A DNA stretch of 64,000 nucleotides from NCBI RefSeq assembly GCF_964204865.1, contig NC_135252.1, positions 14,322,001-14,386,000 of the forward strand. Direction: 5' to 3'. The position numbers were made by a program. Origin of the DNA: Styela clava (taxonomy: Eukaryota). This document shows, piece after piece, positions 12,001 through 30,000 of this stretch. The first letter of the stretch is position 1; each line of letters begins with the position of its first letter.

Positions 12001-15000
12001 CTAAATGCCATCTCTTACGATCAGATATTGTAATTCTTTGTAATGGAATGAACAGTTCGGATTTCTGAATATCTGAAAAATGCAAGACTTCGGTTTATAA
12101 TATAATTACGGTGACAAATCTTTATGATCTCAATTAGAACCGATCCAAAATAACATTATTGTTAATGCTATATATCAATACTAGAAAAAATTCCAGAATT
12201 TTAAAAGTTATATCTGACTTGTACATTTTAAATATGTTTGTAAATGATTTTAATTAATTAACGAATGGTCCTTCAGACATTTCAAACTCGTTGATACAAA
12301 ATTTATCCTGTATACGATTAACTGGCATTCACCTCCCGACGGATATGGTACCAATTTTACCAAAAAAATAAAAAAAATTGAATTGAAAATATTTAAATTG
12401 AATCGTAATATAATATTATGGTTTTGTGCTATATACAATTCTGTATAACTTTGTATAGAAAATCTGGCTATACCCCGACAATAATTGGGAGCCCAAGCAA
12501 ATACTTCGACATTTAAATCAAGCCTAAAACTCGAATAGCAGTCGAATAGCGTTGCCTAAGGCGTTTTCCCTCGTAATGTGTCTGAGATATATTTGTGTTG
12601 GTTTCACTTATGAACGATTGCCTGGTATGTAGATATTTTTTATAAAGTAATAAAAGTCAGGCATTGAACTCCGGCTTTATCAATAAAATATAAATAAACT
12701 ATTGTCTCAAATACTCAATAGGTTACCTGGGTATACATACTTGACAACGCATAACTTTACAACCATTTTTAATCTGATGCAAAATCTATCAAATCCGGGG
12801 GGACTTGTCTAACACTTCTCTTGAAACACTTGTTCGGCGTAGCGTAACATCGCGTGCAACGTTATTTTTGACTTTACGGGAATCAGACAGCAATGACTTT
12901 ATTATAAGTATTAGATATGACAATGAATATCCGTATTTCCTCGTTGAATTTATGACATTTTGGGTGACTCTGTTGCGACAGCGCTATTATTTTTTCTTGA
13001 AACAGAATTTAAAATTAAATTGGTTAAACATCCATTTGTCGCAAGTAGATATCGTAACAAACATATTTTCTGAATTTCGGAAAGAAAGTATATAGAAATT
13101 TATACGCAATATACCCACCGACCTGTGTACAATGACGCTTACTTAGAAGTGCCATTTGCGAGCTATGTAAAACACAATCGAAAAAACTTATCAAGCAATG
13201 AAGTTGCTGTCTGTTGCAATTCATTCATCTTGAACTATGCTACATAAAACATTTTTAAACTCGAAATTACGAGAAACATGTCGTAAAGCAATAGACGTTT
13301 GTACAACATACTTCTTGAAACACATAAAAAGTCATGATTTCATGAATTCTATTTTCTATTCCAAGAGTACAACTACTGTAATAAGTGCAGTAATTTGATT
13401 GTGTAAAACGTTTTGAAAGATAAATCATATACAAAGTAACAAATATTACAAAATTTGATTGAATGACGTCACGTGTTACCACGACTATAAGCTGAGTTTG
13501 AAATGCTATTGCTAATCCTAATACCATATACATCAAACACAAGTCTTCTACATAGTTTACATGAATACGCAAAATTTTGTTCCGTGGCGGGGCATGTGTT
13601 TGGTTCAAACACGACTCGATGTACTCGAGCTGACATTCGAATCAAGCGTAACAAAAAATACGTCATATATGGCATTGATTCTAAAAGCTCGATAAGGTGA
13701 CATTGGTTAAATTTTTTTTATTCATTTTGAACATTTACGGCAGAGATTATTATATATGTTATTCATTCAAATATTGTTGAAAAAAATATCTACTCAAAGC
13801 TAAGGTTACACAAATACTCACATAGACTACGTATTACAAGACTACTTTTCAAATTCAAGCGTGTGCGAATAGTTTATAACATACAATGATCAAATTATAA
13901 TTAGGTTTGCTTGGTGATCCTATGTCATACATAGAGATATATAAGTACCCTTATAAGTCATTTTGTATTTTAACTAAGCTTAGAAGGAATTATTTGTCCT
14001 GTATATAGAGAACTAAAATCTGCAACGCGGTTTGAAAGACAGGCGACCATACATTCGTTTTCTTGCAGACTTTCGCTTTCTATCATTGTAGCGGATTATC
14101 TGCAAACTTGGGAAAGCCATGTTGCTTCTGTACATTTTCAGTAACAAATATGGAGGTTTTGTTTGCTCGTTGGAACTTGTCGTTGTTGTCGAAGCCGGTG
14201 CGATAGACGTAGTTGTAGAAGCCGGTTCGGTAGTCGTAGTTATTGCAGCTTAGAATAGTAAAATATTATCAGATAAAAAACACAAAATTTCATAATAATC
14301 ATGAGTGCATTCACATTAGACACATGTTGATGGCTAATTTAAAAAACCAAAAAAATAAAACTGAATTAAGCATAAAAATCGACTTGAATTCGAATCTAAT
14401 ACGTATTTGTCGACAAATACGAAAGTCCAATTTTGTATATAGAACATATGTTTAATGCTTCGAACCTTCATACTAAAAAAATGAATAAAATTATTCTCCA
14501 AACCAAAATCAACCAAACTAAAAAGTTTGAAATTTTGTAATAAAGACCCATCAGCATAAAACCCTCCAAACAGATACAACTAAAACCTCATCTTGCTATC
14601 ACGTCGCTATGAAACGGGTATTTAGGACGCATCCTTACATTATCACCTGACAGAATGGCAGAGATTAATAAAAATTTCACATATAAATAACTTGTTTCAT
14701 CGCTTCCATAAAGTTTGTTTGATTTTCCGACAGTGGGATTAATGATTTTATTGAAATACCTTCACAAGATATTCCATCTCCTTGAAACCCATCTTTACAA
14801 GCACATGTAAAGCTTCCTTCTGTATTCTCACACTCCGCATTTAAATGACAATTGCCATGTCCCAATGTACATTCATCAATGTCTGTAATGTTAAAATATG
14901 ATAATAAAACATATTCGATTTCTGAAATTTCAAAAGAAAGAAAAAAACTAAAGAGCTGATTGACAAATCATTACCTACGCATAGTTTTCCTTCGCTTGAG

Positions 15001-27000: not shown

Positions 27001-30000
27001 CAAAATTACTTACAGAGTCTTCGACAATAGATACTGCAATGTCTTCATCAGTTCCAACAACAACAACTATTGCTCAATATGAGAGAAACGCAACAATGAC
27101 AACACTTAACTCAGGTCTGACATGTCATTCTTGCACGTGTACAACTAAATGCAGACTTTTATTCCTGGGAACGACCAAATCAATAAATTGAAATTCAAGA
27201 TGAAAAAATTGCTTACAAAACATTACTACTATGTATGATTGTATAAAGGACATATCCTGCCTGAGCCGTGCAATTTTTTATTCACAAAATTAAGCGAAAT
27301 TGTAATTCATTCCTGTTTTTCGTATGTCAAGTATTGTGGTCTAGTCTAGACTTCAAATGATTCAATAAGATAACATGTAAAGAGTATTTGTTTCATAATT
27401 GTCTTCTTATTGGAATTACCAACATTTTCAACAACTCTATACAGCAGGCATTAGTCAAGAGTATAATGTGATCTATTATTTGTTCATATTCGATATAAAA
27501 GTTTTAACCGCAGTTTTTCCATCCCGTCCACAGACACATTATGAGGGTGATGCGTTAATCTGGCACTGAACATAAAATTGTAAAACCTGGTAATTTTAAA
27601 CACTGCAAGATCATCACACAACTAACGATATCATTTATTCAGATTTTCTCACCACAACTACAACAGAGGGGTCGACTTCACCTACCAGATTGTCAACAAT
27701 GACTATTTCCGCAGAACTGATATCCAATAGTAGTTTTACAAGTAACTTAAATTTGCAAATGTTACATTTATATTACTATCATAATTATATTCAATTTATA
27801 TATAATCCTCATACGCATTTACACGTCGGGCATCAATCACTTCACGGGTTAACAAAGACTGAATCCCAATTCAGTCATATTTTTTCATAATCTTTAGTCA
27901 GAATTGTTTTTAAATTCCCATATTTATCCTTCTAATTAGTTATTGAGCTTTCTCAATTTCAAGTACTAGTCTGATTCCGAACGATAGCTATATAGATTAT
28001 TGCCAAATTGCACCTTTGATCCTAGAAGGATTGCTAGAAGATGTTCATCTTTTTATAATCTCATCGGATCTATTCAGTGATAATTATAGTGATTTTGAAT
28101 TCACTTTGAAGTGGAAAAATTGAATTTTATCAGCTGAGGCAGCAACAAATAAAGCCTCACCGGCCGATAACATAGATTTACATGCTACTTCGAGTTCAAT
28201 TACGACTTCCACAACAACATCATCAGCAACAACAACTTCAAGTAGGTTTCCACTCCTTGATATATTTTTGGGGGATTAAGTCGTAACATAATCTGAAAAT
28301 TATCAAAAATGGCTTCCATCCCTGCAAGAAATATATGCTACGGAAGCAATTATTGAAAAAGAAATACAATCATAAATATTCAATATTTTGCTACATGAAT
28401 TTCGTTTCATACTTACTACTTTGGTATTCTAGAGCAGGGCTACCCAACTATTTTACCGAAGATCTGCATTGAAAACTTCAAAATTATTTGGGTCCGGCGT
28501 TTCCAGAAATTATATTTCGGCATCCGTAAACGCGCACTTCCTCGACCGGCTAATGATTATCAGCTAATCAAGATTGTTTATTATGGTGTTATAGTTCTTT
28601 TCATATATATTCAAAACAATAAAAGTCATTTTATAATATGAAAATTAAAAGTGGGGCTAATGATCCAAAATAAAGAATTAGGTGCGGTCCGAATCAAATA
28701 CTTAAAAGGTCCGGATTCGGACCATGGTCCGTCAGTTTAGTAGCCCTGTTCTAGAGTAGTATTATTATCTTAATTAAATTTTTATCTAAGTAGTCCGAAT
28801 GAATTCACAGGTATCATACCAGGACAGAGTTCACATACCAGCAATAACATGGCATTGAATTCAACTTCGATCTCCACCGCGACCTCCACAACAACACCAC
28901 CAACAACTGCAACTTCGAGTAGGTTTTAGATTCATGATATAGTTGTTAATTAAATTATTCTGCTACCTTTGGAGAAAAGCTGACTTAAAAAGAAAGACAT
29001 CTCACAAAATGAAAGGATTTTTGTAAATATCTGCGTGATTTTGATACCATATCGTTTTGGTACTTATATATACTTTTTATTTCGTTTTATACATATATAT
29101 ATATATGGCCACCTACGACCATACGCTATAAAAGGTACTCCCGTAGTATGTGAACCACGATGGCGAGCACCGGAACGTAGTATGTGTACCAGGTTAGGGT
29201 TAGGCCATAAGTTTATTCCATTTTTCCTTATTTTAGTTCTATTACAAGTTCGAGGACCAGCCAAGTGACTCCCGTAGTATTTGTACCTGAAATTATGGCC
29301 CAATTAATTATTATAATAAATTATTTGGTTCATATACTACGGGAGCACCCTATAATACATATATATATGCCCACCTATGACCATACGAGATAAAATCTGC
29401 TACCAACGTACCAATGCCACATAAATAGTCTATTCTTGGTAATTATAGGGCAAACGTGAATTGGATAAACAAGTTTAACCTCCATCTGAACCCAACGGCA
29501 TATATGCATTTAATAAATTGTAGCCCTGGTTATCAGTGCAAATAAACATACGAGGTTGATCTATGTGCTTTTGATATTTTACAAATATATTTAAACATTT
29601 CAGCATCAAAGAGCGGAGCAGAGAAGTGCGTCACAGGAACCAAAATGCTTTTAATAAGTCTTGTTTTTTATCGATTTTTGGTGTAATCATTTATCATAAT
29701 TCAAATAAATAAATAAATTTGTTGATAAAGGTTGCCGTCAATTTGGGCGATATTTGTTTGGAAAGCATAAGATAAAATTATTTAGAACAGCGTGCGATTT
29801 CCAAAAAATGCAATTCGAGCGTAAATTAACTGTATTGAAAATGAGGAAAGCATTTACTATATTATACAAATACAAATATAAACGGTATACCTGAAACAGT
29901 GCAAGTTCGAAAATACCGCGACAAAACGGCATTCTTTAACAGAAACCAGACCATGTTCGAGAAGGCATGAGAAACGACGTTATCCCTTTTCGTTCTACAC

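What the first reader, a model, noticed from the sequence alone, without database searches (positions are those of the whole stretch)
14013..29686. Three-gene cluster sharing an unrecognised N-terminal module but with three different tails
Seen in sequence: after the signal peptide all three have C-x2-C-x-[YF]-Y-hydrophobic (CADCQYYVL, CPNCNFYVF, CPDCEYYIL), then [FI]QRG, then an atypical EGF-like exon AC-x2-Y-x3-ACG...C...[YF]xCxC...E[TV]R(T)ET-x1-3-[YF]xC[TS]. Paralog 1 adds 7 cbEGF and a Thr-rich tail. Paralog 2 stops at once (EIDRDL*, resembling a truncated DIDEC start). Paralog 3 adds four Ser/Thr exons and a GPI-like signal. Paralogs 1 and 2 are head-to-head. I do not recognise the shared ~100-aa module. 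Inference: a lineage-specific recognition family deployed as matrix, soluble and surface-tethered forms. Roles such as gamete recognition, allorecognition or immunity are speculative.
Basis: partly seen in the sequence, partly recalled or inferred. Interest (0 to 1): 0.7.

Follow-up and report, generated by a model that had tools for sequence, protein, structure and literature searches.

The report
Orphan secreted head, three different tails
Three neighbouring genes of the sea squirt Styela clava encode secreted proteins that share a head of about 95 residues matching no described protein family, joined to a matrix-type tail, to almost nothing, or to a sugar-rich stalk with a likely lipid anchor; the family is real and small, and its function is unknown.

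Summary
The window is Styela clava DNA. RefSeq already models three separate uncharacterised proteins of 496, 128 and 281 residues, and their junctions equal the ones I derived.

- **Shared head:** after a signal peptide, all three share a head of about 95 residues. It has a 44-47-residue part (C-x2-C, [YF]-Y, hydrophobic strand, D, G, QRG) whose similarity was reached by 0 of 2000 shuffles in each of 3 pairs. It also has a six-cysteine EGF-like part, 45-48% identical.
- **No known match:** Pfam, PDB sequences, Foldseek/PDB and the ESM Atlas gave nothing. An exhaustive phmmer over 1.84 billion representatives found only the paralogs plus one spurious bacterial repeat protein.
- **Fold:** AlphaFold2 gives the same element order for two paralogs.
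- **Tails:** as described.
- **Details that fail:** the 'DIDEC remnant', and a look-alike of the CxxC motif at neighbouring TIL exons, which is intron read-through.
- **Function:** recognition is untested. The one allele-like pair shows a conserved head.

I read it as a lineage-restricted extracellular family with an undescribed domain.

The parts
19922..20048 (-). Paralog 1 (LOC120342786, P0003) exon 1: Met, signal peptide, C-x2-C-x-Y-Y strand; ends in phase 1 inside a Gly codon
19436..19513 (-). Paralog 1 exon 2: SFQRG and the predicted helix of the N-terminal sub-module; phase 1-1
18906..19061 (-). Paralog 1 exon 3: six-Cys EGF-like sub-module of the head; phase 1-1
14760..18027 (-). Paralog 1: seven cbEGF exons (18027-17902, 17586-17452, 17019-16876, 15888-15769, 15353-15225, 15091-14975, 14882-14760), one domain per exon, all phase 1-1
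   Evidence: (EGF_CA, 7 stretches)
14013..14248 (-). Paralog 1 last exon: Thr-rich stretch, then a basic 46-residue end with a lone Cys (residue 494); stop at 14013-14015
20049..22005 (.). 1957-bp spacer between the divergent start codons of paralogs 1 and 2 (possible shared promoter region; not analysed)
   Evidence: inference
22006..22213 (+). Paralog 2 (LOC120342825, P0001) exon 1: signal peptide plus the whole N-terminal sub-module in one exon (lacks the intron that paralogs 1 and 3 share)
22410..22568 (+). Paralog 2 exon 2: EGF-like sub-module
22812..22831 (+). Paralog 2 exon 3: six residues (E-I-D-R-D-L) and stop
24738..24867 (+). Paralog 3 (LOC120341985, P0002/P0029) exon 1: signal peptide, C-x2-C-x-Y-Y strand; same intron position and phase as paralog 1
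24970..25044 (+). Paralog 3 exon 2: IQRG and predicted helix
26546..26704 (+). Paralog 3 exon 3: EGF-like sub-module
27016..28918 (+). Paralog 3: four Ser/Thr-rich exons (27031-27114, or from 27016 in isoform X1; 27643-27741; 28134-28241; 28811-28918), all phase 1-1; predicted disordered
29604..29686 (+). Paralog 3 last exon: small residues (S-G-A), short spacer, 13-residue hydrophobic end; GPI-signal-like; stop at 29684-29686

Best explanation
Three tandemly duplicated Styela clava genes encode secreted proteins. They carry one common N-terminal head of about 95 residues and were diversified by phase-1 exon shuffling of their tails.

The head is predicted as one compact unit. A C-x2-C at the mature N-terminus is followed by a beta-hairpin and a helix, and these pack with a six-cysteine EGF-like sub-module.

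I take the head to be the working (binding) part and the tails to set where it sits:
- Paralog 1 puts it on a calcium-binding EGF rod with a mucin-like stretch and a basic end, so it would be retained in the matrix.
- Paralog 2 releases it as a free 105-residue protein, a diffusible form or a competitor.
- Paralog 3 holds it on a glycosylated stalk with a GPI-type anchor signal, so it would be displayed on the cell surface.

Shown: the gene models, the homology of the heads, the domain content of the tails, and the lack of any known family. Inferred: secretion, GPI anchoring, matrix retention, and that the head binds something.
For: Gene models. AG/GT at every border, and the coding lengths equal the RefSeq proteins.

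Common descent.
- 29 invariant columns across the three proteins.
- E = 2.6e-15 and 2.6e-10 in a library of 1.84e9.
- The N-terminal part alone was reached by 0 of 2000 shuffles in 3 of 3 pairs.
- Paralogs 1 and 3 have the same phase-1 intron inside the Gly codon before [SF/I]QRG, and it is absent in paralog 2.
- All internal exons are phase 1-1.

Fold. AlphaFold2 on P0001 gives mean pLDDT 79.8 and pTM 0.68, with ten-residue blocks from 31 to 120 at 81-93. P0002 shows the same order of elements (E E H H H E E E E) with head blocks at 73-89.

Tails.
- EGF_CA, 7 stretches, in paralog 1.
- The paralog 3 stalk is 50% S+T, has pLDDT about 22, and is followed by a C-terminal helix at 269-280 and a hydrophobic window at 269-281.
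- A hydrophobic N-terminus in 3 of 3 proteins.

Constraint on the head. Two versions of the paralog 1 protein differ at 1 of 94 head residues, against 4 of 26 (signal peptide), 3 of 299 (cbEGF) and 6 of 77 plus two indels (tail). Paralog 2 keeps all 8 cysteines and every invariant residue, and RefSeq lists two protein accessions for it.
Against: - No expression, protein or binding data were available. The RefSeq models are predictions, and I could not see their RNA support.
- No orthologue was found, so conservation over time cannot be judged.
- The AlphaFold2 alignments held only 3 and 4 sequences. The five P0001 models ranged from 55.6 to 79.8 mean pLDDT, so the fold is provisional.
- The hydrophobic end of paralog 3 is short (13 residues, with one Arg), and no GPI predictor was on hand.
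- The allele-like comparison rests on one pair of record versions whose origin I infer.
- The EGF-like label is sub-threshold in Pfam and reaches only 45.7% probability by hhalign.
Confidence: 0.5

Rival explanations
1. Paralog 2 is a truncated duplicate on its way to decay. Only paralogs 1 and 3 would be working genes, and there would be no designed 'soluble form'.
For: It ends six residues after the head, in a 20-nt terminal exon. No orthologue shows that the short form is maintained.
Against: The reading frame is intact with a signal peptide. All 8 cysteines and all invariant head residues are kept. AlphaFold2 is at its most confident for this paralog. RefSeq lists two protein accessions for it. 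The downstream DNA shows no decayed cbEGF exon.
Confidence: 0.15
2. The head is an assembly or cross-linking cap rather than a ligand-binding unit. The N-terminal C-x2-C, together with the lone Cys 494 of paralog 1, would form intermolecular disulfides that build a matrix or coat polymer.
For: The C-x2-C lies 3-5 residues from the inferred mature N-terminus in 3 of 3 proteins. Paralog 1 has an odd number of cysteines, 51, with one alone near the C-terminus.
Against: Paralogs 2 and 3 have even cysteine counts once the signal peptide and GPI-signal residues are set aside (inference).
Confidence: 0.15
3. The family is a polymorphic self/non-self or gamete recognition system.
For: A lineage-restricted, secreted or surface-bound, tandemly duplicated family. 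Ascidians do use EGF-repeat proteins in such roles (recalled, not checked here).
Against: The only pair of versions available differs at 1 of 94 head residues, and the changes sit in the signal peptide and tail. Paralog 2 is letter-identical in the record and in the window. There are no expression data.
Confidence: 0.07
4. The N-terminal sub-module is a relic of a known domain. One version is the last cysteine of a TIL domain plus exonised intron, because neighbouring TIL exons read through as C-P-x-C-x-[FY]-[FYI]. The other is the first strand and DxSxS loop of a VWA domain.
For: 3 of 7 TIL exons in the window read C-P-x-C-[KE]-[FY]-[FYI] past their ends, and 2 more read C-P-R-C and then stop. 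A Styela TIL protein from another chromosome holds a similar stretch (P0005). Paralog 1 reads D-T-S-G-S after the hydrophobic strand.
Against: In the RefSeq protein P0009 the TIL exons splice at T|GTRAGT, so the second Cys and what follows are intron. DNA similarity between the three exon 1s and the five junctions is not above shuffles: in 14 of 15 comparisons at least 26 of 300 shuffles reached the score, and in one comparison 1 of 300 did. No TIL or VWA match appeared at E <= 10 for any exon. DxSxS is present in 1 of 3 paralogs only.
Confidence: 0.05
5. Paralogs 2 and 3 are one gene.
For: They share a strand and lie 1.9 kb apart. All their exons are phase 1-1, so exon 2 of paralog 2 could splice in frame to downstream exons.
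Against: Paralog 3 has its own Met and hydrophobic signal peptide. RefSeq gives separate LOC ids and an own stop for paralog 2.
Confidence: 0.05

Closest known systems
Modular cbEGF matrix proteins (fibulin/fibrillin-like). An older RefSeq version of paralog 1 was named 'fibulin-1-like'.
   Same: Signal peptide, an array of one-exon, phase 1-1 calcium-binding EGF domains (7 in paralog 1), and a secreted matrix-type layout.
   Different: Pfam finds only EGF families in P0003 and no other fibulin-type module. The N-terminal head has no counterpart. Paralogs 2 and 3 have no cbEGF at all.
[quoted passage not shown]
   Same: A secreted, lineage-restricted stolidobranch ascidian protein that joins EGF-like repeats to undescribed modules. 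It shows that such orphans can signal, in that case during metamorphosis.
   Different: The repeat content differs. No non-Styela protein came up in the exhaustive search. I had no Hemps sequence to compare, so kinship is neither shown nor excluded.
Small EGF-domain surface proteins with a GPI anchor: Plasmodium Pvs25/Pfs25/Pvs28, EGF-CFC/Cripto, and the sea-urchin 63-kDa sperm protein (listing and abstract starts only: PMC9664031, PMC5147002, PMC2119707).
   Same: Paralog 3 has a signal peptide, an EGF-like unit and a GPI-type C-terminal signal. The best sub-threshold Pfam match of the EGF-like exon is the Pvs28 EGF model (19.5 bits against a cut-off of 26). Weak local Foldseek matches to Pvs25 and Pfs25 appeared (E = 2.3 and 3.9).
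   Different: None of these matches is significant. There is no CFC domain, and these proteins have no N-terminal C-x2-C/QRG sub-module. The likeness is one of layout.
Gla-EGF layout of vitamin-K-dependent clotting factors (recalled, not tested).
   Same: A small N-terminal unit of about 45 residues with one short disulfide loop and a helix, sitting directly on an EGF domain.
   Different: The head has no Glu-rich stretch and no Pfam Gla match at E <= 10. This is an analogy of layout only.

Membership tests
EGF-like domain (head exon 3) | Six cysteines with C4-x-C5 and EGF-type spacing, and Gly three residues after C5 | tested here: met
   C-x7-C-x5/6-C-x10-11-C-x-C-x14-15-C and C-x-C-[IV]-x-G in 3 of 3 paralogs
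EGF-like domain (head exon 3) | Score at or above a Pfam EGF-family gathering cut-off | tested here: not met
   0 of 3 exons reach a cut-off. Best matches: Pvs28 EGF 19.5 bits against 26, EGF_LRP2 14.6 against 30, EGF 11.8 against 21.5. The head profile gave 0 PDB sequences at E <= 10.
EGF-like domain (head exon 3) | Profile-profile match in register with bona fide EGF domains | tested here: inconclusive
   hhalign of the 3 exons against the 7 cbEGF exons of paralog 1: probability 45.7%, E = 2.1e-4, 21 columns, C2-C3-C4-C5-G in register
EGF-like domain (head exon 3) | Disulfides 1-3, 2-4, 5-6 | not testable with these tools
   Model coordinates are not returned. The stretch around C1 and C2 is predicted helical, which is unusual for EGF (recalled).
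Calcium-binding EGF (paralog 1 repeats) | Pfam EGF_CA above cut-off, with D/N-x-D/N-E-C start | tested here: met
   EGF_CA 192.8 bits against 27, 7 stretches. D, E and C are invariant at the start of 7 of 7 exons.
GPI-anchored protein (paralog 3) | N-terminal signal peptide, plus a C-terminal hydrophobic stretch preceded by small residues and a polar spacer | tested here: inconclusive
   Hydrophobic windows at 4-20 and 269-281, and S-G-A eleven to nine residues before the tail. C-terminal helix at 269-280. The tail is short at 13 residues, and no dedicated predictor was available.
GPI-anchored protein (paralog 3) | Release by PI-PLC, or anchor seen by mass spectrometry | not testable with these tools
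   Needs an experiment
TIL domain or TIL-E junction (for the C-x2-C start) | Pfam TIL match, or a coding C-P-x-C-x-[FY] after TIL in relatives | tested here: not met
   No TIL match at E <= 10 for any head exon. In the neighbours the motif is intron read-through. DNA similarity is not above shuffles.
VWA domain (for the strand plus DxSxS in paralog 1) | Pfam VWA match; MIDAS DxSxS conserved | tested here: not met
   No VWA match at E <= 10. DxSxS is present in 1 of 3 paralogs. The sub-module has 44-47 residues, far shorter than a VWA domain (recalled).
Fibulin family (old name of paralog 1) | A fibulin-specific module beside the cbEGF array (recalled definition) | tested here: not met
   The 9 families that P0003 reaches at their cut-offs are EGF-type (ADGRF3_N overlaps a cbEGF repeat); a tenth, New_glue in the Thr-rich stretch, stays below its cut-off at 19 bits against 31
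Hemps (ascidian EGF-like signalling protein) | 4 EGF-like plus 3 novel Cys-rich repeats (PMC3760835 passage); sequence similarity | tested here: inconclusive
   The architecture differs. The exhaustive search returned no non-Styela relative, but I do not know whether that library holds Hemps.

The most novel reading that the evidence does not exclude
The head would be a new extracellular binding domain with a fold of its own: an N-terminal C-x2-C staple, a beta-hairpin and a helix fused onto a remodelled EGF core. It would have arisen within styelid ascidians. The three genes would form a matched set in which a matrix-bound form, a GPI-tethered form and a free form compete for the same partner, making a self-contained ligand, receptor and decoy system for settlement, tunic-epidermis adhesion or blood-cell recognition.
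Probability: 0.2. Interest if true: 0.55.

Novelty: new variant of a known kind. Interest (0 to 1): 0.35.

Why it matters

This cluster is a compact case of how such proteins arise. One undescribed head domain is duplicated in place and then given three different addresses by phase-1 exon shuffling.

If the head proves to be a binding unit, the natural 128-residue free form is a ready-made probe for finding its partner.

If it is only a lineage-restricted matrix component, the value is modest: an entry for a domain library and a better name for three 'uncharacterized' RefSeq proteins.

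Tried and rejected
1. **Fragment alignment.** Aligning the separate exon translations to P0001 misplaced the short exons. I did not use that alignment.
2. **Bacterial hit in the exhaustive search.** P0004 (1228 residues, E = 2.8e-06) matches query 27-55 in 7 repeated stretches. I read it as a repeat-summed chance match to a bacterial cell-wall enzyme, and I did not test that reading further.
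3. **TIL-junction origin of the C-x2-C strand.** Rejected. The look-alike is intron read-through, and the DNA similarity is not above shuffles.
4. **Last exon of paralog 2 as a decayed cbEGF exon.** Not above shuffles.
5. **VWA relic.** No support.
6. **Fold searches.** With the P0001 model, 0 of 196 listed matches had E <= 0.001. With the P0002 model, 0 of 384 did. The Atlas gave only EGF leads with scores of 0.84 or less for the whole protein, and no usable feature hit for residues 24-72. Its structural rows with TM 0.56-0.70 cover 41-47 residues of unrelated families and mean little.
7. **Homodimer test of the free head.** Two copies of residues 24-128 gave 'no answer' (score 0.02 against a mark of 0.32). 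This is no evidence either way.
8. **Thyroglobulin-like protein of Styela** (PMC12992692, passages). It is a Tg1-domain protein and is unrelated.
9. **Literature.** 0 papers hold the three LOC ids or the three XP accessions I searched for (XP_039267746, XP_039267699, XP_077967351). Keyword searches gave nothing on these genes.
10. **dN/dS between paralogs.** Not attempted. At 27-48% identity the synonymous sites would be saturated.

Full report
**Source and gene models**

The window has no N and is about 31-35% G+C over the region. The 69-residue translation of the first exon of paralog 2 matched one protein at 100% identity over its whole length: 'uncharacterized protein LOC120342825 [Styela clava]', 128 residues (1 protein among 8 candidates). 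So the window is DNA of the stolidobranch ascidian Styela clava. It is not human.

A profile of the three EGF-like exons then returned the three RefSeq proteins of the cluster and nothing else (3 proteins with E <= 1 among 136 candidates):
- P0003, 496 residues, LOC120342786, is paralog 1.
- P0001, 128 residues, is paralog 2.
- P0002, 281 residues, LOC120341985 isoform X2, is paralog 3.

The exon borders I had derived from reading frames and splice sites all carry AG and GT. They sum to 1491, 387 and 846 nt, exactly the three proteins plus stop, and every junction residue agrees with the RefSeq sequences. Searches from the window went exon by exon, and whole-protein work used the stored RefSeq proteins that the searches had returned.

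**The shared head**

The three proteins align from the signal peptide to the last cysteine of the EGF-like exon with 29 invariant columns. These are the C-x2-C, a Tyr, an Asp, a Gly, Q-R-G, and 18 positions of the EGF-like part, including six cysteines. The head-only alignment has 25 invariant columns of 103.

- Identity is 27-31% (12-13 of 42-45 positions) in the N-terminal part and 45-48% (23 of 48-51) in the EGF-like part.
- The similarity is not chance. In a library of 1.84e9 proteins, P0001 finds P0002 at E = 2.6e-15 and P0003 at 2.6e-10.
- The N-terminal part on its own scores 43, 60 and 74 against shuffle means of about 19. 0 of 2000 shuffles reached the observed value in any of the three pairs.
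- Gene structure agrees. Paralogs 1 and 3 have an intron at the same place and phase, inside the Gly codon just before [SF/I]QRG, which paralog 2 lacks. Every internal exon in all three genes is phase 1-1.
- No other copy of the head lies in the 64 kb.

**The tails**

- Paralog 1 has seven calcium-binding EGF domains, one per exon (Pfam EGF_CA, 7 stretches, E = 8.7e-58). A 31-residue stretch with 55% Ser+Thr follows, then a 46-residue end with 14 Lys+Arg against 1 Asp+Glu and a lone cysteine. It has 51 cysteines in all.
- Paralog 2 ends six residues after the head.
- Paralog 3 adds four Ser/Thr-rich exons (133 residues, 50% Ser+Thr). AlphaFold2 leaves them disordered at pLDDT about 22. A last exon follows with small residues, a spacer and a 13-residue hydrophobic end that is modelled as a helix. 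Isoform X1 has five more residues through an acceptor 15 nt upstream.
- Only the N-termini, and in paralog 3 the C-terminus, pass a hydropathy threshold. That fits secretion, and for paralog 3 a GPI signal. No dedicated predictor was available, so these are inferences.

**No known family**

- Pfam: 0 of 8 head-exon translations reach a gathering cut-off at E <= 10. The best matches are sub-threshold EGF models (Pvs28 EGF 19.5 bits against 26), and the N-terminal exons give only noise. As whole proteins, P0001 and P0002 have no family at cut-off.
- PDB sequences: phmmer with P0001 finds one irrelevant chain at E = 1.1. The head profile finds 0 at E <= 10.
- Exhaustive phmmer over 1,835,955,588 representatives: 4 proteins at E <= 0.001. 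These are the three paralogs and a 1228-residue protein whose seven repeats each resemble 29 residues of the query. I read that as a summed chance match.
- ESM Atlas: only EGF-type leads at 0.84 or less for the whole protein, and no usable hit for residues 24-72.
- What stayed unchecked: unannotated tunicate genomes and transcriptomes. 'Lineage-restricted' therefore means 'no relative in the protein sets searched'.

**Predicted structure**

With only the paralogs as alignment, AlphaFold2 models P0001 at mean pLDDT 79.8 and pTM 0.68. Ten-residue blocks from 31 to 120 lie at 81-93. The five models ranged from 55.6 to 79.8.

- The order of elements is strand 32-39, strand 44-50, helix 53-65, short helices 73-79 and 81-85, then four strands (89-93, 100-105, 110-115, 119-123).
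- An independent run on P0002 gives the same order, with head blocks at 73-89.
- So the two sub-modules are predicted as one unit: a hairpin and helix after the C-x2-C, plus an EGF-like core whose first two cysteines sit in short helices.
- Foldseek against the PDB gives 0 of 196 and 0 of 384 matches at E <= 0.001. Among the weak ones are EGF-domain structures (EMR2, CD97, Pvs25, Pfs25) at E above 1.
- hhalign of the three EGF-like exons against the seven cbEGF exons aligns C2-C3-C4-C5-Gly in register at 45.7% probability.
- I call the second half EGF-like with moderate confidence, and the first half unassigned.

**Leads that failed**

- Downstream TIL exons read through their ends as C-P-x-C-[KE]-[FY]-[FYI] in 3 of 7 cases, and 2 more read C-P-R-C and then stop. 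This looks like the start of the head. But the RefSeq protein P0009 splices there at T|GTRAGT, so the motif is intron. DNA similarity to the three exon 1s is not above shuffles. In 14 of 15 comparisons at least 26 of 300 shuffles reached the score, and in one comparison 1 of 300 did.
- The six-residue end of paralog 2 shares only its first ten bases (9 of 10 identical) with the cbEGF exons. 24-212 of 300 shuffles reach the observed DNA scores for the 7 exons.
- The D-x-S-x-S after the strand in paralog 1 recalls a VWA start. It is present in 1 of 3 paralogs and has no Pfam support.
- A homodimer job on the free head gave no verdict and counts for nothing.

**Variation**

The cluster look-up shows an older version of the paralog 1 protein (P0030, then named 'fibulin-1-like'). 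It differs from the current one at 14 residues and by two insertions:
- 4 of 26 in the signal peptide
- 1 of 94 in the head
- 3 of 299 in the cbEGF array
- 6 of 77 in the tail, which also holds both insertions

I infer that the two versions come from different assemblies or haplotypes. Neighbouring genes show 94-100% identity between older records and the window, so this level of difference is the local norm. The head is the least changed part. That speaks for constraint and against a hypervariable recognition surface, but it is one pair only.

**What it most likely is and does**

The cluster is a small family made by tandem duplication, with tails swapped through phase-1 exons.
- Shown: the models, the homology, and the domain content.
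- Inferred: all three proteins are secreted. Paralog 1 is held in the matrix by its cbEGF rod and basic end, paralog 3 is GPI-tethered on a glycosylated stalk, paralog 2 is free, and the head binds a partner common to all three.

I put 0.5 on this package: high for the architecture, and about one in three for the shared-partner function. Rivals are a decaying paralog 2 (0.15), a disulfide cross-linking cap (0.15), a polymorphic recognition system (0.07), a relic of TIL or VWA (0.05), and a 2+3 fusion gene (0.05).

**Comparison and novelty**

- In layout, paralog 1 resembles cbEGF matrix proteins. Paralog 3 resembles small GPI-anchored EGF proteins (Pvs25/28, Cripto; listing and abstract starts only).
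- The family as a whole recalls Hemps, a secreted EGF-like protein of another stolidobranch with novel cysteine-rich repeats and no Ciona orthologue (passages of PMC3760835).
- Membership in any of these is not shown.
- The genes are in RefSeq as uncharacterised predictions. 0 papers in the library hold their LOC ids or the three XP accessions searched, and keyword searches found nothing on them. Supplements were closed and may hold expression data.
- I rate the finding a new variant of a known kind (modular secreted EGF proteins) with an undescribed head domain, of moderate interest.

Noticed in passing
window 31958-41963 (+) and 53751-62435 and beyond (+): Two genes of alternating small six-Cys (EB-module-like) exons and TIL exons lie downstream. 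RefSeq/UniRef name them 'tenascin-like isoform X8' (P0016) and 'cell death abnormality protein 1-like' (P0009). The three-gene cluster therefore sits in a stretch rich in secreted cysteine-rich modular genes.
   Followed up: partly
window 56793, 58477, 60182, 61239, 62426 (+), ends of TIL exons: Five TIL exons end at T|GTRAGT. Read through, three of them mimic the head's C-P-x-C-x-[FY]-[FYI] start and two read C-P-R-C and then stop. The likeness is intron read-through and is not supported as homology.
   Followed up: yes
P0005 (Styela clava 'zonadhesin-like isoform X3', another chromosome), between two TIL domains: A 22-residue insert that begins C-P-D-C-N-F-Y-I-V-V looks like a small retained intron in that RefSeq model.
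   Followed up: no
window 3192-12014 (-), with 7212-7912 (-): Cytochrome P450 exons lie upstream (Pfam p450, E = 1.6e-20 and 6.5e-12). Two open frames between them match a piggyBac-type transposase (DDE_Tnp_1_7, E = 5.9e-11 and 1.6e-06), probably a transposon remnant in an intron.
   Followed up: partly
window 39793-39855 (+): Three successive 21-residue repeats of P0016 (residues 341-403) all map to this one exon at 95% identity. The older protein model therefore has more copies of this unit than the window shows at that identity, which suggests copy-number difference or collapse.
   Followed up: no
window 49402-49689 (+): A 96-residue open frame looked to me like part of a C-type lectin domain (recalled pattern), but Pfam gave 0 families at E <= 0.01.
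   Followed up: partly
window 14013-14248 (-), paralog 1 C-terminus: Paralog 1 has 51 cysteines. The odd one lies three residues from the C-terminus inside a strongly basic 46-residue end. It is a candidate for an intermolecular disulfide or for matrix/heparin-type binding.
   Followed up: no
window 22006-22213 (+): Paralog 2 lacks the phase-1 intron that splits the N-terminal sub-module in paralogs 1 and 3. This is either an intron loss in the shortest gene or a gain before the other two diverged.
   Followed up: partly
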